Source: an uncultured virus (IMG/VR IMGVR_UViG_3300024346_000052)
Lineage: Duplodnaviria > Heunggongvirae > Uroviricota > Caudoviricetes > Crassvirales
Length of the DNA stretch: 20,000 nucleotides
Reading direction: 5' to 3' (one strand)
IMG/VR virus record: IMGVR_UViG_3300024346_000052
In this document: positions 7,507 through 19,040 of the stretch, piece after piece
Layout: every line of letters begins with the position of its first letter
Numbering within the stretch: the stretch's first letter is position 1
Notes under the pieces: model-generated
Database searches by the model: none
Told to the model about the DNA's origin: nothing
Seen by the model: the letters and a program-made list of their open reading frames with translations, nothing else
Translations under genes and position numbers: made by a program

Positions 7507-7943
7507 TACTTGTCTTTTTTAAAATTAATTATTGCTTTTTTTAATACTTTATCAGAATAACAACCACCTTTCATTATTTTGTTTGAAATTGGTGACAAAG
7601 GTATTTCATCCTCACCCATCATTATTCTATATATTTTAGCAATGAGTTGTTTGCATTTAAAAGAAGCTTTATATAAATGGTATTTTTGAGTTGTATGATT
7701 TCTTTTTCTCCAAACAATTATCCAGTTTTCTTTTAACAGTCTGTTCCATCTTCTGTTGTCCCAGCTGTAATAATAAGAGCCCTGTTTAAAATCTTGCTTA
7801 CTAAACATACCGATACTATCTAAGTATATCAACAACTCTAAGTCAGCATCGGTTATATTATTGTTTTTACAAGCCCATTTTCTTATTACCCTGTAATGCT
7901 TTAATATATTTAACTCTCTTATCTCTTTAGAAGTTATTCTCAT
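7506..7943 (-). CDS. Hypothetical basic protein, 145 aa (possibly winged-helix DNA-binding)
   Basis: ORF track; coupled to groES (ATGA) and to the downstream gene. ITDADLELLIYL...RLLKENWI...LYKAS is loosely MarR/wHTH-like (inference). Confidence 0.6.
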   Translation of the reverse strand: MRITSKEIRELNILKHYRVIRKWACKNNNITDADLELLIYLDSIGMFSKQDFKQGSYYYSWDNRRWNRLLKENWIIVWRKRNHTTQKYHLYKASFKCKQLIAKIYRIMMGEDEIPLSPISNKIMKGGCYSDKVLKKAIINFKKDK

Positions 7944-8200
7944 AAAACTATAACAACATCTTGCTCTTTTATTATTTTAAAAGAATCTCCGTCTATGTCA
8001 ACAGAAAAACCAGCATGCCTATCGTAAAATATAATATCTTTATTTTTAATAAAATTAACTTCTTCTCCTTTTATTAAAACTTCAGCTTTTTTATATCTTA
8101 TATCTTCTCTAGATTTATCAGACAATATTAAACCACCTTTTGTTTCAGTGGTTTTGTTTTTTGTTTCTTTTATTACTATATATTTACCTACTGCTTTCAT
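7940..8200 (-). CDS. groES: Co-chaperonin GroES (Cpn10), phage-encoded, 86 aa
   Basis: MKAVGKYIVIK...TKGGLILS mobile-loop motif...IIKEQDVVIVL; adjacent to groEL. Confidence 0.92.
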   Translation of the reverse strand: MKAVGKYIVIKETKNKTTETKGGLILSDKSREDIRYKKAEVLIKGEEVNFIKNKDIIFYDRHAGFSVDIDGDSFKIIKEQDVVIVL

Positions 8201-9735
8201 GCTCTTAAGTTATTAATTACACAATCAGTTGATAATATAGTAGATGCTACTGAAGCCGCATTTTTAAGAGCACTTTTAGTTACTAGTAAAGGATCTATTA
8301 TTCCGGACTTTACCATACTTACCGTTTTACCTGTAACCACATTTAATCCTTCACCTTCAACATTAGAGTTGGTATAATCAGTAATACCAGCGTTATTCAA
8401 TATAGTATTATATGGTGATTTAATAGCGTTAAACAATATTTCTTCTGACGAGTTGTCAGCATTAATATTAGTTGCAGCGTTAAGCAACGCTATGCCACCC
8501 CCTGGCACTATACCTTCTTTTATTGCGGCTTTTGTAGCACAAATAGCATCTTCTACTCTATCTTTTTTTTCTTTAAGTTCTATTTCAGAATTTGCTCCAA
8601 CTTTTATTACTGCAACTTTAGCTAATAACCTAGCAATTCTTCTTTCAATCTTTTCTTTAACCAAAGAGTTTTTTTCTTTAATTATTTTTTTTCTTAAAAA
8701 ATTAATTAAATCATTAACTTCGTTTGGCATTTCATCTACCTGTATTAAAGTTTCTGAAATACTACTTATTGTTTTTTTGCAAGAACCCAATAGGCTTAAA
8801 TCTATCAAATCCATATCATCGCCTAAGTCTTCATTTACAACAGTAGCTCCTGTTATTAAGGATAAGTCTTCAAGCATTTCTTTTCTATTAATACCGTAAA
8901 CTGGAGAATTTATTACGTTTACCTTTATATTGCCTTTAACTTTATTCATTGCTAAAGCGCTTGTAACTTGAGGATCTAATTCTCCTATTATTAATAAAGA
9001 TTTTTTTTCAGAAATAATATACTCTAATACGTTTTGTATTTTTCTTATATTATCTATTTTACTATCTAATATTAAAATTAATGGTTTGTGCAGCTCACAA
9101 GTTTTATCTTCTTTGTTTGTAATGAAATGATCTAAAACACAACCTTGTTCATATTGAACCCCCTCTATTCTTTCTACTTCCGTTATTGGACTTTCGTGTG
9201 TTTCCATTAATACAACCCCCGTATTATCTACACTTTTAAAAGCCTCACTTATTAATAGTCCTAAATCATTATCATTATTGGCTGAAATTGTAGCTACTTG
9301 TTTAATTTTATCTTCAACAACTGGTGTTGAGATTTTTTCAAGATATTGCACTACTTTTTCTACAGCCGTATTTATTCCTTCTTTTAGTTCCCTAGAGGTT
9401 ATATCCCTGCTTTTATTAGCTTCCATTAATATAGCATGTGCTATTACAGTAGCTGTTGTTGTTCCGTCTCCTGCTTCTTTAACTGTTTTTCTAGCCGCTT
9501 CTTTTATTAATTTAGCTCCCATGTTTTCAACGGGATCTAGTAGAACTATAGAATTAGCAACAGTAACACCATCTTTTGTTATTATAGGATTTCCACTGTT
9601 GTCTTCCATTATCACACACTTACCACTAGCTCCAAGAGTGGAGCTAACGGCTTGTGTTAATTTATTTATTCCATTGAATATTTTATTTCTAGCATCTTCA
9701 CCGAAGTTTAAATGCTTTACAATTGTATCACTCAT
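8197..9735 (-). CDS. groEL: Chaperonin GroEL (Cpn60), phage-encoded, 512 aa
   Basis: ITKDGVTVA, AGDGTTTATV, KDRVEDAICATKAAIKEGIVPGGG, GIIDP motifs; lacks the C-terminal GGM tail. Confidence 0.97.
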   Translation of the reverse strand: MSDTIVKHLNFGEDARNKIFNGINKLTQAVSSTLGASGKCVIMEDNSGNPIITKDGVTVANSIVLLDPVENMGAKLIKEAARKTVKEAGDGTTTATVIAHAILMEANKSRDITSRELKEGINTAVEKVVQYLEKISTPVVEDKIKQVATISANNDNDLGLLISEAFKSVDNTGVVLMETHESPITEVERIEGVQYEQGCVLDHFITNKEDKTCELHKPLILILDSKIDNIRKIQNVLEYIISEKKSLLIIGELDPQVTSALAMNKVKGNIKVNVINSPVYGINRKEMLEDLSLITGATVVNEDLGDDMDLIDLSLLGSCKKTISSISETLIQVDEMPNEVNDLINFLRKKIIKEKNSLVKEKIERRIARLLAKVAVIKVGANSEIELKEKKDRVEDAICATKAAIKEGIVPGGGIALLNAATNINADNSSEEILFNAIKSPYNTILNNAGITDYTNSNVEGEGLNVVTGKTVSMVKSGIIDPLLVTKSALKNAASVASTILSTDCVINNLRA

Positions 9736-13858: not shown

Positions 13859-13890
13859 TACAATGTCAATACGATCTTCATTAGATAATA
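13859..13890 (+). promoter_or_regulatory. Repeated promoter-like motif copy 1
   Basis: TACAATGTCAATACGA-TCTTCATT-AGATAATA. Confidence 0.7.
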
Positions 13891-13919
13891 TAATCAACTA
13901 ACAAATAAATAATAACAAT

Positions 13920-14012
13920 ATGAATAACTTAAATAAAATCCTATCACTCGACATCGTACTACCTACATTCTTTATAACATATGAATTAATATTCTTACTA
14001 ATAATTTCTTAG
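13920..14012 (+). CDS. Hydrophobic microprotein, 30 aa
   Basis: MNNLNKILSLDIVLPTFFITYELIFLLIIS; directly downstream of motif copy 1 with an A-rich leader. Confidence 0.4.
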   Translation: MNNLNKILSLDIVLPTFFITYELIFLLIIS

Positions 14013-14075
14013 ATATGTTTACATGTCGCGCAGTACTTCTAGCTAATAAATAACATATAAACAAATATACACTTT

Positions 14076-14107
14076 TACAAACTAAATACGACAACAACAA
14101 GATAATA
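14076..14107 (+). promoter_or_regulatory. Repeated promoter-like motif copy 2
   Basis: TACAAACTAAATACGA-CAACAACA-AGATAATA. Confidence 0.8.
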
Positions 14108-14138
14108 ATAATAACTAAACTAAATAAATAATAAATAT

Positions 14139-14375
14139 ATGAAAACTAATAAACTAACAACTAAAAGATTTGTAATAAGAAAATCTTTACTCGGTACAAA
14201 TACAGTAATAACATTTACTAATAAGAAAGAAGTAACATTCACTTATGATCACGATGAAATTTACTCAACATTTCAACAAAAGTTTGAAGAAATGGCTTGT
14301 TTTCAACAGTACAAATCTTATACAAATTCTAATACTGTTCCAAAATTCTGTAGAGAATTAAGTACTCAGTCTTAA
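14139..14375 (+). CDS. Hypothetical early protein, 78 aa
   Basis: ORF track; follows motif copy 2. Confidence 0.75.
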   Translation: MKTNKLTTKRFVIRKSLLGTNTVITFTNKKEVTFTYDHDEIYSTFQQKFEEMACFQQYKSYTNSNTVPKFCRELSTQS

Positions 14376-14444
14376 AAACTAAAAGTCGACGTTGATAGTA
14401 ATACTTTAACGACTATAAATAACACGAACATATTACTCAACACA

Positions 14445-14488
14445 TAGCCGAAATGGTTGGAAGTGAGATTCGATTTCTCACTCGGTTA
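14445..14488 (+). ncRNA. tRNA-like mini-structure (acceptor-like stem + T-arm, no anticodon arm)
   Basis: TAGCCGA/TCGGTTA 7-bp stem, linker AATGGTTGGAA, GTGAGA/TCTCAC stem with T-loop TTCGATT. Confidence 0.5.
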
Positions 14489-14518
14489 CAAACTAATTAC
14501 GATAGTCGTAAGATAATA
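14487..14518 (+). promoter_or_regulatory. Repeated promoter-like motif copy 3
   Basis: TACAAACTAATTACGA-TAGTCGTA-AGATAATA. Confidence 0.8.
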
Positions 14519-14542
14519 ATAATAACTATAAAAATAAATAAT

Positions 14543-14743
14543 ATGTATCACTCTAATTCCCCTTCAAACTGGTCATGGAAAAAAGCTTTTGACGAAATGA
14601 ACAAGTATGTTCATCAAACAGAAATGACTCAACAATCTATAAATCACGTACTAAATTATCCTGGTGAAGCTAATGGTGTCTTTATGTCACTAAGTAAATC
14701 ACAACAAGATGATGTTTACGATATACTAAATCAAATAATATGA
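14543..14743 (+). CDS. Hypothetical early protein, 66 aa (MYHSNSPSNWSWKKAF...)
   Basis: Start moved from 14453 to the ATG downstream of motif copy 3 in an A-rich context. Confidence 0.7.
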   Translation: MYHSNSPSNWSWKKAFDEMNKYVHQTEMTQQSINHVLNYPGEANGVFMSLSKSQQDDVYDILNQII

Positions 14744-14820
14744 ATAAAGAACAAAAACTATTTGTAGCAATATTAATTTGCTCAATACTAATAATAATAA
14801 CAGATGTCGTTACAAACTAA
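14740..14820 (+). CDS. Hydrophobic microprotein, 26 aa
   Basis: MNKEQKLFVAILICSILIIITDVVTN; ATGA overlap with the upstream gene; stop lies inside motif copy 4. Confidence 0.45.
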   Translation: MNKEQKLFVAILICSILIIITDVVTN

Positions 14821-14842
14821 ACACGACAAATAATAGATAATA
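14811..14842 (+). promoter_or_regulatory. Repeated promoter-like motif copy 4
   Basis: TACAAACTAAACACGA-CAAATAAT-AGATAATA; ATG at 14848. Confidence 0.8.
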
Positions 14843-14847
14843 ATAAT

Positions 14848-15063
14848 ATGAATATAAAACAACATAAGCAAAAGCTTAACAAAAAATACAATCAAGCGAT
14901 TGTCGATAAAGTACTAAACTCAATGTGGTCAAAGCTCGGTAACGAGTTAGATGATGTTATGATGTCAGAAGGTTACTCTGAAACTAACAATGAAATGTTT
15001 GACGATCAAGATTGTTACTCAGGTATTATACTAAACATTATGAAGTTACAGTGTGATGAATAA
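14848..15063 (+). CDS. Hypothetical early protein, 71 aa
   Basis: ORF track; directly after motif copy 4. Confidence 0.7.
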   Translation: MNIKQHKQKLNKKYNQAIVDKVLNSMWSKLGNELDDVMMSEGYSETNNEMFDDQDCYSGIILNIMKLQCDE

Positions 15064-15113
15064 GTTTAACTGACGAGAGTTTAATACTCGAAACTACGCA
15101 AGTAGTCTTAAAC
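15064..15113 (+). ncRNA. Hammerhead ribozyme, type I
   Basis: Stem I GTTTAA/TTAAAC; core CTGACGA; stem II GAGT-TTAAT-ACTC; GAAA; stem III CTAC-GCAA-GTAG; GTC cleavage triplet, predicted cut after 15107. Confidence 0.92.
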
Positions 15114-15129
15114 AAATAATTAACTAAAT

Positions 15130-15387
15130 ATGAAAAAAATAATAATGACTATAGGTGCATTTGCACTAATGTCTTCGGCAAGTAATAAGAATTACCCTTC
15201 TGATCAACTATGTTATGCTATGTTGAACTTATCTCAAATGCAATTAGAAATGTGGGAAGATCTTGAAAACGGTAAACTTACTCAATCTCAAGCTGAAAAC
15301 TGGAATGAAATAATTGAAGAAACTTATATATTCATTGAAGATTATTACAAGCATTTACCTGATGGAACATTAGTAGATAACTTTTAA
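15130..15387 (+). CDS. Hypothetical protein with signal-peptide-like N-terminus, 85 aa
   Basis: MKKIIMTIGAFALMSSAS followed by an acidic domain. Confidence 0.7.
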   Translation: MKKIIMTIGAFALMSSASNKNYPSDQLCYAMLNLSQMQLEMWEDLENGKLTQSQAENWNEIIEETYIFIEDYYKHLPDGTLVDNF

Positions 15388-15419
15388 TACAAACTGAATA
15401 CGAATAACAATAGATAATA
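15388..15419 (+). promoter_or_regulatory. Repeated promoter-like motif copy 5
   Basis: TACAAACTGAATACGA-ATAACAAT-AGATAATA. Confidence 0.8.
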
Positions 15420-15442
15420 TAATTAAATAAAATAAAATAAAT

Positions 15443-15625
15443 ATGAATAAATCAGAAAAAACGGCAATTACGTCAATTACAGGAATACTAATGATAGTAT
15501 TAGTAGCAATAGCAACATCTTGCTCACCTACACAAACAGCTTATAAATCAGGAGTTAAAAAGAAATTTAACGGAAAACTAGTAAGTCACGCGCATAACTA
15601 CAACGCTTGTCCAGCTTATCAATAA
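15443..15625 (+). CDS. Putative small lipoprotein, 60 aa
   Basis: Hydrophobic stretch ILMIVLVAIA then TSC (lipobox-like Cys). Confidence 0.6.
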   Translation: MNKSEKTAITSITGILMIVLVAIATSCSPTQTAYKSGVKKKFNGKLVSHAHNYNACPAYQ

Positions 15626-15634
15626 AATATAACT

Positions 15635-15805
15635 ATGACAGAACAACAAGCAATTGAAGCAATCGCTAATGATATACAAGATGGTATCTACGGTTGGACA
15701 CAGAAATGTGGAACAGAGTGGCAAAAGTGGACATATTCACTAATGCAAGCTAAGAAAATATATAATGGTGATTTAATAATAAATTTAAGTATAGAAAATG
15801 AATAG
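15635..15805 (+). CDS. Hypothetical protein, 56 aa
   Basis: Hand translation MTEQQAIEAIANDIQDGIYGWTQKCGTEWQKW...SIENE; fills the gap. Confidence 0.65.
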   Translation: MTEQQAIEAIANDIQDGIYGWTQKCGTEWQKWTYSLMQAKKIYNGDLIINLSIENE

Positions 15806-15983
15806 AGATAGAGAATGGGATTTTATGGAAGAACATAGAGAGCTAATGGAAACAGAAGATGAAAGATCTTTACTAGCAACTTTTGCACTAGTAGTCAGAG
15901 AACTCGCTATAAAGTTTCCTAATGATCAAGAATTAGGTGCAGAAGTAAGAAAATTAATACAAGATTATAAACTAAATACATGA
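15798..15983 (+). CDS. Hypothetical protein, 61 aa
   Basis: ORF track; contains FPNDQELGAEVRKL; overlaps both neighbours. Confidence 0.7.
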   Translation: MNRDREWDFMEEHRELMETEDERSLLATFALVVRELAIKFPNDQELGAEVRKLIQDYKLNT

Positions 15984-16207
15984 AAAAAATAATAATAGCA
16001 GCAAGTTTTTTATGCTTATTAAGTTTTAACACTAAAACTGATACAGTAAAAAACAAAATATTTCAAGCAACGCAAGTACAAACAACACTAAGAGAAGAGT
16101 TGTATTGGATTTATATAGACAATCCTACACTAGAAAACAAAAGTAATCATGTAGATGCTTTATATGTAGAGACTTTATTAAAAGAAATTCTAAATGATAC
16201 AATTTAA
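15980..16207 (+). CDS. Hypothetical protein with signal-peptide-like N-terminus, 75 aa
   Basis: MKKIIIAASFLCLLSFN; ATGA coupling to the upstream gene. Confidence 0.65.
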   Translation: MKKIIIAASFLCLLSFNTKTDTVKNKIFQATQVQTTLREELYWIYIDNPTLENKSNHVDALYVETLLKEILNDTI

Positions 16208-16229
16208 AAACGAACACTAACAGATAATA
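16198..16229 (+). promoter_or_regulatory. Repeated promoter-like motif copy 6
   Basis: TACAATTTAAAAACGA-ACACTAAC-AGATAATA; ATG at 16235. Confidence 0.7.
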
Positions 16230-16234
16230 TATAT

Positions 16235-16378
16235 ATGAAAACAATTAAATTTTACCCAAGCAATAGGTCACTAATAAGATTAGATGACAAAATGATAAAA
16301 GGTTACACTATAGATAGTATACCAGACAACATAAACTCATGGTTTAACTATAAAGGTCTAACTTACGTAACAAGTTGA
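16235..16378 (+). CDS. Hypothetical protein, 47 aa
   Basis: Hand translation MKTIKFYPSNRSLIRLDDKMIKGYTIDSIPDNINSWFNYKGLTYVTS. Confidence 0.65.
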   Translation: MKTIKFYPSNRSLIRLDDKMIKGYTIDSIPDNINSWFNYKGLTYVTS

Positions 16379-16392
16379 TATAAACCCAACTG

Positions 16393-16437
16393 ACGAAACT
16401 AATAGCTCATACTTGATCAGTATGGGCTTTTCGTGGT
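16393..16437 (+). ncRNA. Conserved RNA hairpin element, copy A
   Basis: ACGAAA-CTAAT-AGCTCATACT-TGATC-AGTATGGGCT-TTTCGT-GGT, then ATG at 16438. Confidence 0.6.
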
Positions 16438-16878
16438 ATGAAATGTAACCACAATATTCCACAAGCAAGATTAAATCTTGGCTATAAAGTATGTGTCGAT
16501 TGTAGTACAGTAGAAAAACTCGGCTGTATTGACACTATAAATCATAAAACTGGCAATACTATTCAAGTAATGTCACGTGAAGATGCAGAAAAAGCCAATA
16601 AGTTAACAAAACGAGCAGGTTTTGGTATACTAAGATCTATGTCTAATGGTTCAAGTCAACGTAAAGCTAATATGATCACTGGATGCTCAACTACTTTTGT
16701 AGGTAACGACGTAATGTTCGAGCAAGTAGGTAAAACTTACATGGATTATTTAGAAGTTGATGAAGAAATTGCCCAGCGCTATCTCGATCGAGCGCTAAAC
16801 AACGTAGAAATATCTCAATTACAATATAATAAGATAAAATTACTTTGTTACAGTCTAAATACGATCAATAATAGATAA
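16438..16878 (+). CDS. Zinc-finger-like protein, 146 aa (DksA/TraR-type finger-like N-terminus)
   Basis: C...IPQARLNLGYKVCVDC resembles the IP.ARL...C..C part of DksA/TraR fingers. Confidence 0.6.
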   Translation: MKCNHNIPQARLNLGYKVCVDCSTVEKLGCIDTINHKTGNTIQVMSREDAEKANKLTKRAGFGILRSMSNGSSQRKANMITGCSTTFVGNDVMFEQVGKTYMDYLEVDEEIAQRYLDRALNNVEISQLQYNKIKLLCYSLNTINNR

Positions 16879-16880
16879 TA
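16849..16880 (+). promoter_or_regulatory. Repeated promoter-like motif copy 7
   Basis: TACAGTCTAAATACGA-TCAATAAT-AGATAATA. Confidence 0.75.
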
Positions 16881-16894
16881 TATTTAAATAATAT

Positions 16895-17041
16895 ATGAAT
16901 AAAATAACAAAAAAGCTCGAAAACTTGTACTCTTGGACAAAATTCTATCAAGATCGAGGTAATAAAGAAGCAATTAGAAAATGTCAAACTGAAATCGCAC
17001 AGTTAAAACAAGCGTTTAATCAATTAAAGTCTAAAAAATGA
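16895..17041 (+). CDS. Hypothetical protein, 48 aa
   Basis: Hand translation MNKITKKLENLYSWTKFYQDRGNKEAIRKCQTEIAQLKQAFNQLKSKK; ATGA coupling to the next gene. Confidence 0.65.
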   Translation: MNKITKKLENLYSWTKFYQDRGNKEAIRKCQTEIAQLKQAFNQLKSKK

Positions 17042-17328
17042 AAGATACTAACGCTATTGAAAAAGCACTAGAAAATAAGTGTAAACAAGAAATAAACCAA
17101 GTAGTCAACGTTTTTATGAACGAACTCGAAGTAAAAATCAGAGGTGAATATAGTTCAGCTAATTATTACGACTTTACACCACCAAACAACGATGGCAAGA
17201 AATCTTTTCACGTAATGGGTACTGAACAATTAAAAAATGTACTATTTAGAATGATTTCAAATGCTCATCTTGAGTCTATGGTTGCTTTAAAATCAAAAGA
17301 ATTAATTAAAAAACTTGAATTAGTATGA
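17038..17328 (+). CDS. Hypothetical protein, 96 aa
   Basis: ORF track; coupled to both neighbours. Confidence 0.7.
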   Translation: MKDTNAIEKALENKCKQEINQVVNVFMNELEVKIRGEYSSANYYDFTPPNNDGKKSFHVMGTEQLKNVLFRMISNAHLESMVALKSKELIKKLELV

Positions 17329-17630
17329 AAAATAGAACACTAAACGAAATTAGACAATCAAAAGAGTATCAACAAGCTGTTAAATCAGGAAATAATCTAG
17401 ATTTAAATGTTGATGTAGCTATAGACGAAATAGTAGATAATCTCAATACTCACTTGTTTGATATAATATTTCAAACAGTAAATGATGAAATGCATAAGTA
17501 TACTGTGTTTCAAGAACAAACTTATCTAACTCCTGAAGGCATGGATATGTTTGAAGAGCAATGGTTCGAGTTTTATCATGAGCATCACGGTGAAATTCTA
17601 GGTAGAATAATGAAAACTCTTACAAACTAA
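17325..17630 (+). CDS. Hypothetical acidic protein, 101 aa
   Basis: ORF track; stop lies inside motif copy 8. Confidence 0.7.
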   Translation: MKNRTLNEIRQSKEYQQAVKSGNNLDLNVDVAIDEIVDNLNTHLFDIIFQTVNDEMHKYTVFQEQTYLTPEGMDMFEEQWFEFYHEHHGEILGRIMKTLTN

Positions 17631-17652
17631 ATACGAACACTAAAAGATAATA
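17621..17652 (+). promoter_or_regulatory. Repeated promoter-like motif copy 8
   Basis: TACAAACTAAATACGA-ACACTAAA-AGATAATA; ATG at 17658. Confidence 0.8.
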
Positions 17653-17657
17653 TAAAC

Positions 17658-17879
17658 ATGTTATACGATAAATTAAAACCACATATCAAAGCCAAAATGA
17701 AAGAAAATGCTGAAGAGTATAAATCTGTCAATTGGATTATTGATGAACTAAAACAAAAAAACAATTATTCTGACTTAACTATTGAGCAAATAAGATCTAT
17801 CTGTACATTTGGCGATGTATGGTATTATGATCTTACGCAGAAAGAGTTAATATGGGGTGATTGGTTAACAAATAAATAA
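17658..17879 (+). CDS. Hypothetical protein, 73 aa
   Basis: ORF track. Confidence 0.7.
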   Translation: MLYDKLKPHIKAKMKENAEEYKSVNWIIDELKQKNNYSDLTIEQIRSICTFGDVWYYDLTQKELIWGDWLTNK

Positions 17880-17881
17880 AT

Positions 17882-18232
17882 ATGAACGAAGAAAAACTAG
17901 CTTTAGAAACATTAAAAGCACTAGGTGCTAAAGACACATCAAGTCCATCTCAAATAAAAAGAGGTACAACTTGCTTTACATTACCAACAGGTGACTGCGT
18001 GTCTGAACACAAAACAGGTTATATCAGAAAAAATCTACTAAATAAAAACGGTGGAATATATACTTGTTATCAACTAAATCCACAATATAAGACAATTGAA
18101 AAGTCTATAAGTTGGAATGGTAAAGAGCGTGTTGACGAAAGAAACAACAGGATGTTGATATGGAATAGAGCTGAAAGACTAAAAAGATTAGTCCTTTACA
18201 CAATAAAACAAATAAATAAACTAAATAAATAA
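17882..18232 (+). CDS. Hypothetical basic protein, 116 aa
   Basis: ORF track. Confidence 0.7.
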   Translation: MNEEKLALETLKALGAKDTSSPSQIKRGTTCFTLPTGDCVSEHKTGYIRKNLLNKNGGIYTCYQLNPQYKTIEKSISWNGKERVDERNNRMLIWNRAERLKRLVLYTIKQINKLNK

Positions 18233-18242
18233 ACTAAAAAAC

Positions 18243-18689
18243 ATGGAAGAATTAACCGAAGAAAGAATAATAGAATTAGTAAAAGATCACTTTGAATTAG
18301 AAATATCAACTGATATAATGAATTTTGAAAATCGTGATTTTATGATATACAGTGAAAGTACAGCAGATGGCTACGAAGTATTTATTGCTACACATGACCC
18401 AAGAAACCCATCAATATGTGAAGAAGTGCACTATTACGATAGTGATTTGTCTAAAATTTTTACAGATCAAATAAGCTATGGAGATAAAAGCTTTTACATT
18501 TGCGATGGTATTTACGAAGATTGTTATTTTGATGAAGCTTTAGTAGAATTGTTTGCTGATGTTGTTGAAGAAGTAATTCAAGAAGCAGAAGATGGCGAAG
18601 GAAATACTAATATTACAAAAAAAGAAATAGAGATTTTAAAAATAAATCATGGCTTAAATGCCGAAGAAATTGAAGAAACTGTTAGTTAG
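18243..18689 (+). CDS. Hypothetical highly acidic protein, 148 aa
   Basis: ORF track; very D/E-rich. Confidence 0.7.
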   Translation: MEELTEERIIELVKDHFELEISTDIMNFENRDFMIYSESTADGYEVFIATHDPRNPSICEEVHYYDSDLSKIFTDQISYGDKSFYICDGIYEDCYFDEALVELFADVVEEVIQEAEDGEGNTNITKKEIEILKINHGLNAEEIEETVS

Positions 18690-18743
18690 TTAATAGTAGT
18701 TTAGTTTCCACGATAGTTACTGAATAGGCCCGACCAGCAGGTA

Positions 18744-18791
18744 ACGAAAGTAACACTAGCTCGTACTCAAAAGGTACGGGCTTTTCGTGGT
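18744..18791 (+). ncRNA. Conserved RNA hairpin element, copy B
   Basis: ACGAAA-GTAACACT-AGCTCGTACT-CAAAA-GGTACGGGCT-TTTCGT-GGT, then ATG at 18792. Confidence 0.6.
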
Positions 18792-19007
18792 ATGGATAAT
18801 ATAGGAATGATGAAAGCGTTTATGTTACTAGGTGACTTACACGCTACAAGCACAGACAAGTTAAGCGACTCAAGAGTTGCTTACAAAGAAAGAATAGCTT
18901 TTGCTACAATGAGAGCTAGTATACCTGATTGGCAACCGCCAAGTGACTGGAATAGTTTAACTAATAAAGAAAAACTAAACAGACTTGATAAACTACAATC
19001 AGTATAA
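18792..19007 (+). CDS. Hypothetical protein, 71 aa
   Basis: ORF track; C-terminal PSDWNSLTNKEKLNRLDKL. Confidence 0.7.
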   Translation: MDNIGMMKAFMLLGDLHATSTDKLSDSRVAYKERIAFATMRASIPDWQPPSDWNSLTNKEKLNRLDKLQSV

Positions 19008-19008
19008 T

Positions 19009-19040
19009 TACAAACTAAATACGATAACTAACAGATAATA
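19009..19040 (+). promoter_or_regulatory. Repeated promoter-like motif copy 9
   Basis: TACAAACTAAATACGA-TAACTAAC-AGATAATA; ATG at 19046. Confidence 0.8.

What the first reader, a model, noticed from the sequence alone, without database searches (positions are those of the whole stretch)
15064..15113. Complete intergenic hammerhead ribozyme in the phage early-like region
Seen: all conserved hammerhead core bases (CUGACGA, GAAA, GUC) with three fully paired stems: I GTTTAA/TTAAAC, II GAGT/ACTC, III CTAC/GTAG closed by a GCAA GNRA loop. It starts on the base right after the stop of 14848-15063, and the predicted cut (15107/15108) is 22 nt upstream of the ATG at 15130. Known: hammerheads occur in phage and bacterial genomes but their role there is mostly unresolved. 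Inference: self-cleavage splits the polycistron, leaving a 2',3'-cyclic phosphate upstream mRNA and a 5'-OH short-leader mRNA for a putative exported protein.
Basis: partly seen in the sequence, partly recalled or inferred. Interest (0 to 1): 0.85.

Follow-up and report, generated by a model that had tools for sequence, protein, structure and literature searches.

The report
Phage intergenic type I hammerhead ribozyme
The flagged 50 bases are a genuine self-cutting hammerhead RNA sitting between two small early genes of an uncultured marine phage; it is an ordinary new member of a ribozyme class already known to be common in phages.

Summary
Window 15064-15113 (+) carries a complete type I hammerhead: core CUGACGA / GAA / A15.1-U16.1 / C17 and three stems, with the cut predicted between 15107 and 15108.

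- Chance: simulated windows gave 0 strict matches in 500.
- Family: it belongs to a very large phage-borne family. A scan fixing only stem I's 5' strand and the core gave 121 complete ribozymes in 137 matches. An A flanks the 6-bp stem I on the 5' side in 119 of 121 and on the 3' side in 119 of 121. All three stems covary.
- Close relatives: where the upstream gene has drifted to 84.5-95.8% DNA identity, the ribozyme changes only at N7 and in loop III.
- Rfam: it misses it at curated thresholds. RF00163 scores 25.8 bits against a cut-off of 34, and only in an 81-base search.
- Context: across the family the ribozyme runs from stop codon to start codon. One relative has eight copies in 5.4 kb.

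It most likely cuts a two-gene early transcript. Cleavage itself is untested, and RNA contigs were uninformative. This was described by Perreault et al. 2011, and this scan holds 119 notes matching 'hammerhead ribozyme intergenic' on other DNA. It is a new member of a known kind.

The parts
15063..15114 (+). Full conserved element: type I hammerhead plus the two flanking A residues (A15063 is the third base of the upstream TAA stop; A15114)
   Evidence: With the two A's included, the hammerhead fold is the ViennaRNA minimum-free-energy structure of the 52-mer at -9.3 kcal/mol. My own model R1 scores 70.2 bits; the window's copy was in its training alignment, so this is circular.
15064..15069 (+). 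Stem I, 5' strand (GUUUAA); pairs with 15108-15113
   Evidence: Stem I is exactly 6 bp in 56 of 56 unique family members, and its outermost pair is G-C in 55 of 56. All 6 stem I pairs show changes on both sides.
15070..15076 (+). Core C3 U4 G5 A6 N7 G8 A9 (CUGACGA; N7 = C)
   Evidence: N7 is U in relatives L139, L141 and L142, which is the one free core position.
15077..15089 (+). Stem-loop II: GAGU / UUAAU / ACUC
   Evidence: 3 of the 4 stem II pairs show changes on both sides. Where the loop was not fixed by the search, stem II has 4 bp in 101 of 121 and a 5-nt loop in 93 of 121; the commonest loops fit U-N-A-N-U.
15090..15092 (+). Core G12 A13 A14
15093..15106 (+). Stem-loop III: A15.1-CUAC / GCAA / GUAG-U16.1 (5 bp, GNRA loop)
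   Evidence: Relatives carry CGGUC/GACCG, CGGGGA/UCCCCG and CCCAUC/GAUGGG in its place. The loop is GUAA or ACAA in close relatives.
15107..15108 (+). C17 and N1.1: predicted scissile bond between 15107 and 15108
   Evidence: Position follows from the hammerhead consensus (passage on core numbering). H17 is C in 95 and A in 26 of 121 family members. Cleavage was not tested.
15108..15113 (+). Stem I, 3' strand (UUAAAC); would be the 5' end of the downstream RNA after cleavage
15108..15129 (+). Predicted 22-nt A/U-rich leader of the downstream mRNA, with no Shine-Dalgarno-like run
   Evidence: The first 46 nt of the 3' product are predicted unpaired.
14848..15063 (+). Upstream ORF, 71 aa, no family match; its stop codon abuts the ribozyme
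   Evidence: Relatives found.
15130..15387 (+). Downstream ORF, 85 aa, no family match; hydrophobic N-terminus that looks like a signal peptide
   Evidence: Relatives found.
14811..14842 (+). Promoter-like 32-nt repeat (TACAAACTAAACACGA-N9-AGATAATA) ahead of the two-gene unit
   Evidence: nine + strand copies in 13859-19040 and none on the - strand. Function untested.
15388..15419 (+). Next copy of the same repeat, right after the downstream ORF

Best explanation
Window 15063-15114 (+) encodes a genuine, full-format type I hammerhead self-cleaving ribozyme. It sits in the early, + strand small-gene region of an uncultured marine phage, whose host may be a member of the Flavobacteriia.

Proposed mechanism, all of it inferred:
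1. The ribozyme is transcribed as part of a two-gene RNA, ORF 14848-15063 followed by ORF 15130-15387. This unit probably starts at the promoter-like repeat at 14811.
2. Once the 3' strand of stem I has been made, the RNA folds and cuts itself between C15107 and U15108 by internal transesterification.
3. The upstream message then ends 44 nt past its stop codon. It carries hairpins II and III and a 2',3'-cyclic phosphate at its 3' end.
4. The downstream message starts with a 5'-OH and an unstructured 22-nt A/U-rich leader.
5. The two cistrons thereby gain separate stabilities and separate translation. This is a self-contained counterpart of the host RNase III cuts in T7 early mRNA (that comparison is recalled, not from a call).

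Shown here: the motif, its family, covariation, purifying selection, and the stop-to-start placement across the family. The flanking A's and the UUAAU loop II are probably the stem I / loop II tertiary contact that makes natural hammerheads fast at low Mg2+.
For: Motif and chance:
- Complete core and stems.
- 0 strict matches in 500 simulated windows.

Rfam:
- RF00163 aligns end to end over 15064-15113 (model positions 1-45 of 45, 25.8 bits, E 7e-5 in an 81-base search).

Family:
- An exact core-plus-stem II string occurs in 6 IMG/VR contigs, with different, complementary stems I and III and different neighbouring genes.
- A pattern fixing only the core and loop II gave 50 complete hammerheads in 123 matches, against 9 of 2460 in shuffled controls.
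- A pattern leaving loop II, stem III, the 3' strand of stem I and both flanks free gave 121 of 137 complete. A is at -1 in 119 of 121 and at +1 in 119 of 121.
- 13 of 15 pairs show double changes in 50 sequences. The rows were preselected for pairing, so the 100% paired figure is circular; the changes on both sides are not.

Selection:
- The upstream gene is 95.8, 91.3 and 84.5% identical in L141, L142 and L143.
- Their ribozymes differ only at N7 and in loop III, or not at all: L143 is 50 of 50 identical.
- At 84.5% identity the chance of 50 unchanged bases is about 2e-4 (my arithmetic).

Placement (58 family members):
- The upstream stop lies within -6 to +6 nt of the start of stem I in 38 of the 45 with a called upstream ORF.
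- The next ATG lies 3-32 nt past the ribozyme in 43 of the 51 with a called downstream ORF.
- Relative G005 has 8 copies in 5.4 kb, all on one strand and between ORFs.

Literature:
- Perreault et al. 2011 (passages): hammerheads flank genes in prophages, and three tandem arrangements cleaved during in vitro transcription.
- In haloviruses HF1 and HF2 a hammerhead variant lies 13 nt before a start codon, and a mapped 5' end lies within 3 nt of its cut site (same passages).
Against: - No cleavage assay was run and no RNA end data exist for this sequence.
- Rfam does not report it at gathering thresholds, nor in a 301-base E-value search. 25.8 bits is below the cut-off of 34.
- Folding energy is unremarkable: z = -0.78 for the 50-mer and -0.68 for 121 nt. 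In the 121-nt context the minimum-energy fold replaces stem I with other pairings.
- Stem I has only one G-C pair.
- The ribozyme is dispensable at this junction. 2 of 5 full-length relatives of the upstream gene (L144, L145) lack it and have the next ORF overlapping the stop. 1 of 2 relatives of the downstream gene (L140) has none within 600 nt upstream.
- The nearest held record, G001, lacks the whole region.
- The processing role and its benefit remain a hypothesis in the literature too.
Confidence: 0.8

Rival explanations
1. The ribozyme is real but mainly a passenger or module-boundary sequence. On this reading, a highly conserved ~50-bp element shared by many phages serves as a site of homologous recombination, or travels with gene cassettes. 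Any effect of RNA cleavage on expression is then secondary or neutral.
For: - The same ribozyme (identical stems I and II) sits between different gene pairs. The upstream gene matches the window's in L141-L143 and differs in L003 and L004. The downstream gene matches in L139 and L004 and differs in L003 and L005.
- The gene that follows the ribozyme in L003 follows the window's upstream-gene homologue directly, without a ribozyme, in L145.
- Contigs in a metatranscriptome library (X15) join 15059 to 15641 or 15656, skipping the ribozyme and two ORFs.
- Many copies within one genome share the stem I sequence GGTTAA/TTAACC.
Against: - Selection acts on RNA features, not on DNA identity. Stems covary, the core is fixed, and only N7 and the loops drift.
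- Orientation always matches the flanking genes, and the stop-to-start placement is tight.
- A pure recombination site would need none of this.
- The two roles do not exclude each other.
Confidence: 0.12
2. The cut is conditional rather than constitutive. Because the upstream stop codon lies at or inside stem I, a ribosome terminating there would unwind stem I and the core. Cleavage would then report whether the upstream ORF is being translated, or would respond to Mg2+ or temperature through the weak A/U-rich stem I.
For: - The stop codon lies at -6, -1 or 0 relative to the start of stem I in 25 of the 45 family members with a called upstream ORF and in the window.
- Stem I has 5 A-U pairs and 1 G-C pair.
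- Competing folds are predicted in the longer context.
- Perreault et al. 2011 raise regulated cleavage for phage hammerheads (discussion passage).
Against: - Nothing here measures kinetics.
- The stop-codon overlap is also explained by compact packing, and by the A-rich, TAA-containing consensus of the 5' end of the element.
- The conserved tertiary-contact features argue for a fast, constitutive ribozyme.
Confidence: 0.06
3. The match is a chance look-alike or a decayed, inactive copy.
For: It is below Rfam's gathering score, its folding z-score is unremarkable, and it is absent from some relatives.
Against: - 0 matches in 500 simulated windows.
- Every core position is intact.
- It is identical or changed only at free positions in relatives whose flanking gene has up to 15.5% DNA divergence.
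- Hundreds of covarying relatives exist.
Confidence: 0.02

Closest known systems
Type I hammerhead ribozymes of phages and environmental DNA (Rfam RF00163 Hammerhead_1; Perreault et al. 2011, PMC3088659)
   Same: Same core, same open-stem-I topology, 6-bp stem I and end-to-end alignment to RF00163. Perreault's Dataset S1 taxa list names type I examples in Pseudomonas phages LUZ24 and PaP3 and 860 environmental hits (taxa pages only).
   Different: It scores 25.8 bits, below the cut-off of 34, and is missed in whole-window scans. Relatives from 12 loci also stayed below every hammerhead family's cut-off. I could not see Dataset S1's alignments (only 300 of 1018 pages are held), so I cannot say whether this subfamily is already in them.
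Clustered hammerheads flanking genes in prophages (Agrobacterium tumefaciens ardA region, Clostridium scindens, Azorhizobium caulinodans; Perreault et al. 2011)
   Same: They sit between small, non-conserved genes of phage origin on the same strand. They are proposed to cut long phage transcripts into single-gene mRNAs (passages). Relative G005 shows the clustered form, with 8 copies in 5.4 kb.
   Different: The window has a single copy. Those examples were shown to cleave during in vitro transcription of ~2-kb constructs; this one was not tested.
HHphage of haloviruses HF1/HF2 (Perreault et al. 2011, discussion passage)
   Same: A hammerhead lying a few nucleotides (13) before the start codon of an early gene in a polycistronic unit. 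A mapped transcript 5' end lies within 3 nt of its cut site.
   Different: An archaeal virus, a core variant that needs high salt, and placement before the first ORF of the transcript rather than between two ORFs.
RAGATH-1 hammerhead (Rfam RF03152)
   Same: A type I hammerhead with a short stem I. Several family members give weak full-length hits of 22-32 bits.
   Different: The window copy matches only model positions 26-77 (17.8 bits against 56.3) and lacks the extra 5' hairpin. It is not a member.
RNase III processing sites in phage T7 early mRNA (recalled knowledge, no call)
   Same: Works alike: cuts between cistrons of a long phage transcript that leave a hairpin at the 3' end of the upstream message.
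   Different: Those are double-stranded RNA hairpins cut by a host protein enzyme. Here the RNA cuts itself and leaves 2',3'-cyclic phosphate and 5'-OH ends.

Membership tests
Hammerhead ribozyme (class) | Core C3 U4 G5 A6 N7 G8 A9, G12 A13 A14, A15.1-U16.1, H17 (not G) | tested here: met
   CUGACGA at 15070-15076, GAA at 15090-15092, A15093 pairing with U15106, C15107. The consensus is as quoted in the Methods of Perreault et al. 2011.
Hammerhead ribozyme (class) | Three helices around the core, with no mispair directly next to the core (10.1-11.1, 1.1-2.1, 15.1-16.1) | tested here: met
   G15077-C15089, A15069-U15108 and A15093-U15106. Stems of 6, 4 and 5 bp with no mismatch.
Hammerhead ribozyme (class) | Helices supported by compensatory changes in related sequences | tested here: met
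   13 of 15 pairs show changes on both sides in 50 sequences, and slid controls collapse to a covariation score of 0.10 or less against 0.857 (the rows were preselected for pairing). Selection-free support: 121 of 137 pattern matches have the unspecified 3' strand of stem I and a stem III.
Hammerhead ribozyme (class) | Site-specific self-cleavage giving 2',3'-cyclic phosphate and 5'-OH ends | not testable with these tools
   No assay was possible. The RNA contigs laid cannot show RNA ends.
Type I topology | Stem I open; stems II and III closed by loops | tested here: met
   Loop II is UUAAU and loop III is GCAA. Stem I is formed by 15064-15069 with 15108-15113.
Extended ('full') natural hammerhead | Peripheral elements in stem I and loop II that form a tertiary contact | tested here: inconclusive
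   Conservation fits such a contact. Stem I is always 6 bp (56 of 56). A is at -1 and at +1 in 119 of 121 each, stem II has 4 bp in 101 of 121, and loop II has 5 nt in 93 of 121. The contact itself is inferred; no structure or mutant data exist.
Rfam RF00163 Hammerhead_1 | Score at or above the curated gathering cut-off (34 bits) | tested here: not met
   25.8 bits, E 7.2e-5 in an 81-base search, full model length. No hit in the whole-window gathering scan or the 301-base E-value scan.
Rfam RF03152 RAGATH-1 hammerhead | Extra 5' hairpin (model positions 1-25) and a score of at least 56.3 bits | tested here: not met
   17.8 bits, model positions 26-77 only.
Phage intercistronic hammerheads (Perreault et al. 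2011) | Lies between co-oriented genes of a phage or prophage | tested here: met
   PHROGs matches to holin, amidase, tail fibre, GroEL/GroES and DNA ligase mark the window as phage. The ribozyme lies between + strand ORFs 14848-15063 and 15130-15387.

The most novel reading that the evidence does not exclude
This type I subfamily is a portable 'stop codon - ribozyme - short leader' cassette.
- Its 5' end supplies stop codons: TAA inside stem I, or TAA/TAG using the invariant A at -1.
- Its 3' end supplies a minimal leader of about 10-30 nt.
- Phages use it interchangeably with a promoter repeat or with overlapping stop/start coupling at the same gene junctions.
- Its conserved 50 bp also mark the joints at which gene modules are exchanged.

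A member in cultured Flavobacterium phages (Elemovirus; annotated there as a 35-aa minus-strand ORF) would let the long-open question of what phage hammerheads do be tested by making a catalytically dead ribozyme in the phage.
Probability: 0.3. Interest if true: 0.55.

Novelty: new member of a known kind. Interest (0 to 1): 0.3.

Why it matters
On its own it matters little, since hammerheads between small phage genes have been known since 2010-2011 and this scan has met many.

Three things are useful:
- **Annotation gap:** this large marine and environmental type I subfamily falls below Rfam's curated cut-offs, so routine annotation misses it. In a cultured Flavobacterium phage the ribozyme is annotated instead as a tiny minus-strand protein.
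- **Family regularities:** these constrain any model of function. They are a strictly 6-bp stem I flanked by A's, a U-N-A-N-U loop II, an upstream stop codon built into the element, and a start codon 3-32 nt behind it.
- **Natural controls:** close relatives with and without the ribozyme at the same junction, together with a culturable phage-host pair, allow a test of the still unproven mRNA-processing role.

Tried and rejected
**Rfam**
- The whole-window gathering scan gave 0 hits.
- The E-value scan of 14950-15250 returned only snoRNA-type noise. The hammerhead surfaced only in the 81-base scan, so the earlier blanks reflect filters and thresholds, not absence.

**Similarity searches**
- blastn of 14400-15500 against 50,697 phage records found no match.
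- The window's own assembly is not held (an error message). The nearest record, G001, has neither the region nor any R1 hit.

**RNA evidence**
- Three metatranscriptome runs (X15, X16, X17) and one DNA run (X2) were laid, all as contigs.
- Among the listed pieces, no RNA-library contig lies across 15060-15137, and the RNA pieces end at 15002, 15044 and 15059 or start at 15138 and 15185. A DNA contig spans 14983-15685.
- Depth is low, the stops do not coincide with the cut site, and contigs cannot show RNA ends. I draw nothing from this.

**Other checks**
- T7-like RNA polymerase (PF00940) in G001-G005: no match, but the control genomes did not respond either, so this is uninformative.
- My first pattern for the promoter-like repeat had the wrong spacer and found nothing; it was corrected.
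- Weak R1 hit at 17141-17239 (17.8 bits, E 0.049): it lies inside ORF 17038-17328, its core reads CUAAUUA, and stems II and III are not formed. Rejected as a ribozyme.
- Flanking proteins: no PHROGs or Pfam family.
- The sigma-70 promoter scan found no more sites than shuffles did, 21 against 21.0.

**Literature**
- Perreault's Dataset S1: only the first 300 of 1018 pages are held, and the alignments start at page 651. String searches there found nothing, so whether this subfamily is already listed stays open.
- One literature search failed on term syntax and was rerun.
- One search was an empty script.

Full report
**1. The observation**

- GTTTAA, 15064-15069
- CTGACGA, 15070-15076
- GAGT-TTAAT-ACTC, 15077-15089
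- GAAA, 15090-15093
- CTAC-GCAA-GTAG, 15094-15105
- TC, 15106-15107
- TTAAAC, 15108-15113

In hammerhead numbering this is C3-A9 (N7 = C), a 4-bp stem II with a UUAAU loop, and G12 A13 A14. Stem III has 5 bp, running from A15.1 (15093) to U16.1 (15106), and is closed by GCAA. C17 is 15107, and stem I has 6 bp.

The stop codon of ORF 14848-15063 occupies 15061-15063 and the next ATG is at 15130. A cut after C17 would therefore leave a 22-nt leader.

**2. Is it more than chance?**

I wrote a descriptor requiring the core, stems of at least 5, 4 and 4 bp, the A15.1-U16.1 pair and H17.
- It finds one site in the window, on both strands.
- It finds none in 500 first-order Markov simulations of the window. 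A relaxed version finds one.
- Folding energy alone is unremarkable: z = -0.78 for the 50-mer and -0.68 for 121 nt.
- With the two flanking A's included, the hammerhead fold is the minimum-energy structure of the 52-mer at -9.3 kcal/mol.

**3. Rfam**

The whole-window scan at gathering thresholds gave nothing, and so did an E-value scan of 301 bases. An 81-base scan, which uses laxer filters, gave RF00163 Hammerhead_1 over exactly 15064-15113. It covered the full model length at 25.8 bits against a cut-off of 34, with E 7.2e-5. It also gave a partial RF03152 RAGATH-1 match at 17.8 bits against 56.3, lacking that family's 5' hairpin.

Relatives in 12 loci likewise stayed below every hammerhead family's cut-off. 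This subfamily is therefore invisible to routine Rfam annotation.

**4. Relatives and covariation**

The exact core-plus-stem II string occurs in six IMG/VR contigs. These contigs show:
- stem I as GCUAUA/UAUAGC or GGUUAA/UUAACC;
- stem III as CGGUC/GACCG, CGGGGA/UCCCCG or CCCAUC/GAUGGG;
- different flanking genes.

Two wider scans followed.
Of 123 usable matches, 50 are complete three-stem hammerheads, against 9 of 2460 flank-shuffled controls.
- A second pattern fixed the 5' strand of stem I and the core. It left loop II, stem III, the 3' strand of stem I and both flanks free. It gave 121 complete ribozymes among 137 unique matches.

In those 121 ribozymes:

| Feature | Count |
|---|---|
| Base before stem I is A | 119 |
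| Base after stem I is A | 119 |
| Stem II has 4 bp | 101 |
| Loop II has 5 nt | 93 |

The commonest loops are UGAAU, UAAAU, UCAAU, UUAAU, UAAGU and UGAGU, which fit U-N-A-N-U.

In the first set, stem I is exactly 6 bp in 56 of 56 unique members. On an alignment of 50 members, 13 of 15 pairs show changes on both sides. The covariation score is 0.857, against 0.10 or less when partners are slid. Those rows were chosen for pairing, so the 100% paired figure is circular; the changes on both sides and the slid controls are not.

The fixed stem I length, the two A's and the conserved loop II fit the stem I / loop II tertiary contact that makes natural hammerheads fast at low Mg2+. This contact is described in review passages and in the introduction of Perreault et al. 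2011. The contact itself is inferred here. On this reading the conserved element in the window is 15063-15114, and its first base is the last base of the upstream TAA.

**5. Close relatives: selection and mosaicism**

Searches with the two flanking proteins, a scan with my covariance model R1 and direct reading gave the following.

| Locus | Upstream gene DNA identity | Ribozyme after the stop |
|---|---|---|
| L141 | 95.8% | present; differs at N7 (C to U) and loop III (ACAA) |
| L142 | 91.3% | present; differs at N7 (C to U) and loop III (GUAA) |
| L143 | 84.5% | present; identical, 50 of 50 |
| L144 | 81.8% | absent; next ORF overlaps the stop (ATGAGTGA) |
| L145 | 79.9% | absent; next ORF overlaps the stop (ATGAGTGA) |

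At 84.5% identity, 50 unchanged bases have a chance of about 2e-4 (my arithmetic).

For the downstream gene, L139 (99% protein identity) has the ribozyme, and L140 (64%) has none within 600 nt upstream. The same ribozyme also precedes or follows other genes in L003, L004 and L005. The gene that follows it in L003 follows the window's upstream-gene homologue directly in L145. Contigs in an RNA library join 15059 to 15641 or 15656, skipping the ribozyme and two ORFs.

The element is therefore under purifying selection as an RNA. It is nonetheless facultative at any given junction, and it sits at mosaic joints.

**6. Context in the window**

PHROGs matches mark a phage. On the minus strand there are matches to a virion structural protein, tail fibre, holin, amidase and GroEL/GroES. 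On the plus strand, from 14139 on, there are small ORFs without matches, followed by a DNA ligase.

The GroEL's best phage relatives, at about 40% identity, include Maribacter, Flavobacterium and Bacteroides phages. Runs holding the stretch are labelled marine, seawater, viral or ice metagenomes. A Flavobacteriia host is a reasonable guess, no more.

The plus-strand region carries nine copies of a 32-nt repeat, TACAAACTAAATACGA-N9-AGATAATA, with none on the other strand. Each copy ends 5-31 nt before an ATG. One lies at 14811-14842, before ORF 14848, and the next at 15388-15419, after ORF 15130-15387. No terminator-like site lies between them on the + strand.

The ribozyme thus sits inside what looks like a two-gene unit. 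It fills the 66-nt gap between those genes almost completely.

**7. Context in the family**

Among 58 members with enough flank:
- An upstream ORF of at least 35 codons was called in 45. Its stop lies within -6 to +6 nt of the start of stem I in 38 of them.
- The typical forms are TAA as the last three bases of the 5' strand of stem I, TAG spanning the invariant A and the first G, or TAA ending on the invariant A.
- A downstream ATG-led ORF was called in 51. It starts 3-32 nt after the ribozyme in 43.
- Several GC-richer members show GGAG a few bases after the ribozyme (alignment).

Record G005 (79 kb, terminal repeats) has eight copies between 22.67 and 28.05 kb. All are on one strand, all are flanked by A's, and their stems II and III differ. 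Four of the eight have the upstream TAA inside stem I, and six have an ATG 9-16 nt behind.

This is the clustered, gene-flanking arrangement described for prophages by Perreault et al. 2011.

**8. Mechanism**

Shown: the motif, its family, covariation, selection and placement.

Inferred:
- Co-transcriptional self-cleavage between 15107 and 15108.
- An upstream mRNA ending 44 nt past its stop, with hairpins II and III and a 2',3'-cyclic phosphate.
- A downstream mRNA with a 5'-OH and a 22-nt leader predicted to be unpaired.
- Hence separate fates for the two cistrons.

It works like the RNase III cuts in T7 early mRNA (recalled) but needs no host enzyme.

Rivals:
- A mainly DNA-level role as a recombination joint. 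The mosaic contexts support this, but the RNA-specific conservation argues against it as the main role.
- Translation- or Mg2+-conditional cleavage. The stop codon inside stem I and the weak stem I suggest this, but it is untested.
- Chance or decay, which is rejected.

**9. What is known**

- Perreault et al. 2011 (passages) report hundreds of bacterial hammerheads near prophage genes, often several flanking single genes. They propose processing of long phage transcripts and show in vitro cleavage of three tandem sets.
- The taxa list of their Dataset S1 names type I examples in Pseudomonas phages LUZ24 and PaP3 and 860 environmental hits. I could not see the alignments.
- Reviews from 2017 and 2019 (passages) state that the role of prokaryotic and phage hammerheads is still open.
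- A 2026 paper reports ribozyme-dependent translation initiation in eukaryotic RNA viruses (PMC13725137; abstract and outline only). This is a distant parallel to the short-leader idea.
- This scan's own index holds 119 earlier notes with the words 'hammerhead ribozyme intergenic' on other DNA, several of them judged ordinary phage hammerheads.

**10. A cultured example**

A short blastn query found a related sequence in Flavobacterium phages of the genus Elemovirus. In NC_055855.1, R1 scores 51.7 bits for a copy between gp33 and gp35. It has a 6-bp stem I flanked by A's, a UUAAU-type loop II, an imperfect stem II and one mismatch in stem III. The record annotates the spot as a 35-aa minus-strand ORF, gp34.

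**11. Verdict**

The element is a new member of a known kind, and the family-level regularities and the annotation gap are the useful by-products. Interest 0.3.

Noticed in passing
window 13859-13890, 14076-14107, 14487-14518, 14811-14842, 15388-15419, 16198-16229, 16849-16880, 17621-17652, 19009-19040 (+): Nine + strand copies (none on the - strand) of a 32-nt repeat, TACAAACTAAATACGA-N9-AGATAATA. Each ends 5-31 nt before an ATG. This is probably the early or middle promoter, or another control site, of this phage. The AATACGAC part recalls the T7 promoter (recalled), but no T7-like RNA polymerase gene was found in five related records, and that search's controls did not respond either.
   Followed up: partly
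window 16403-16440 and 18757-18794 (+): A 38-nt repeat. It is a hairpin whose stem differs by a compensatory change (CATACT...AGTATG against CGTAC...GTACG), followed by GGGCTTTTCGTGGTATG, whose ATG starts ORFs 16438-16878 and 18792-19007. It may be a terminator or a translational operator shared by two genes (family D9).
   Followed up: no
window 17141-17239 (+): A weak match to my hammerhead model (17.8 bits, E 0.049). It has a 6-bp stem I (GUUCAG/CUGAAC) flanked by A's but a broken core (CUAAUUA), and it lies inside ORF 17038-17328. It is either chance or a decayed copy.
   Followed up: partly
L147 5985-6066 (NC_055855.1, about 14128-14209), Flavobacterium phage vB_FspP_elemoD_13-5B: A member of the same hammerhead subfamily (R1 51.7 bits) lies between gp33 and gp35 of a cultured phage. 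The record annotates a 35-aa minus-strand 'hypothetical protein' gp34 over it, which is probably spurious. Four further Elemovirus records gave the same blastn match.
   Followed up: partly
G005:C1:22673-28050 (loci L129-L138): Eight type I hammerheads lie in 5.4 kb of a 79-kb phage record with terminal repeats. All are on one strand. Seven have stem I GGUUAA/UUAACC and one has GAUUAA/UUAAUC, and their stems II and III differ. Each lies between ORFs.
   Followed up: partly
window 15059 joined to 15641 or 15656 in run X15; L144 and L145 after position 816: Relatives lack the ribozyme and the two following ORFs. There the upstream gene's stop overlaps the next start (ATGAGTGA). The ribozyme-bearing stretch behaves as an exchangeable module.
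   Followed up: partly
window 7940-9735 (-): The phage encodes its own GroES (86 aa) and GroEL (512 aa; PHROG 5725, E 9e-135). The best phage relatives are only about 40% identical.
   Followed up: no
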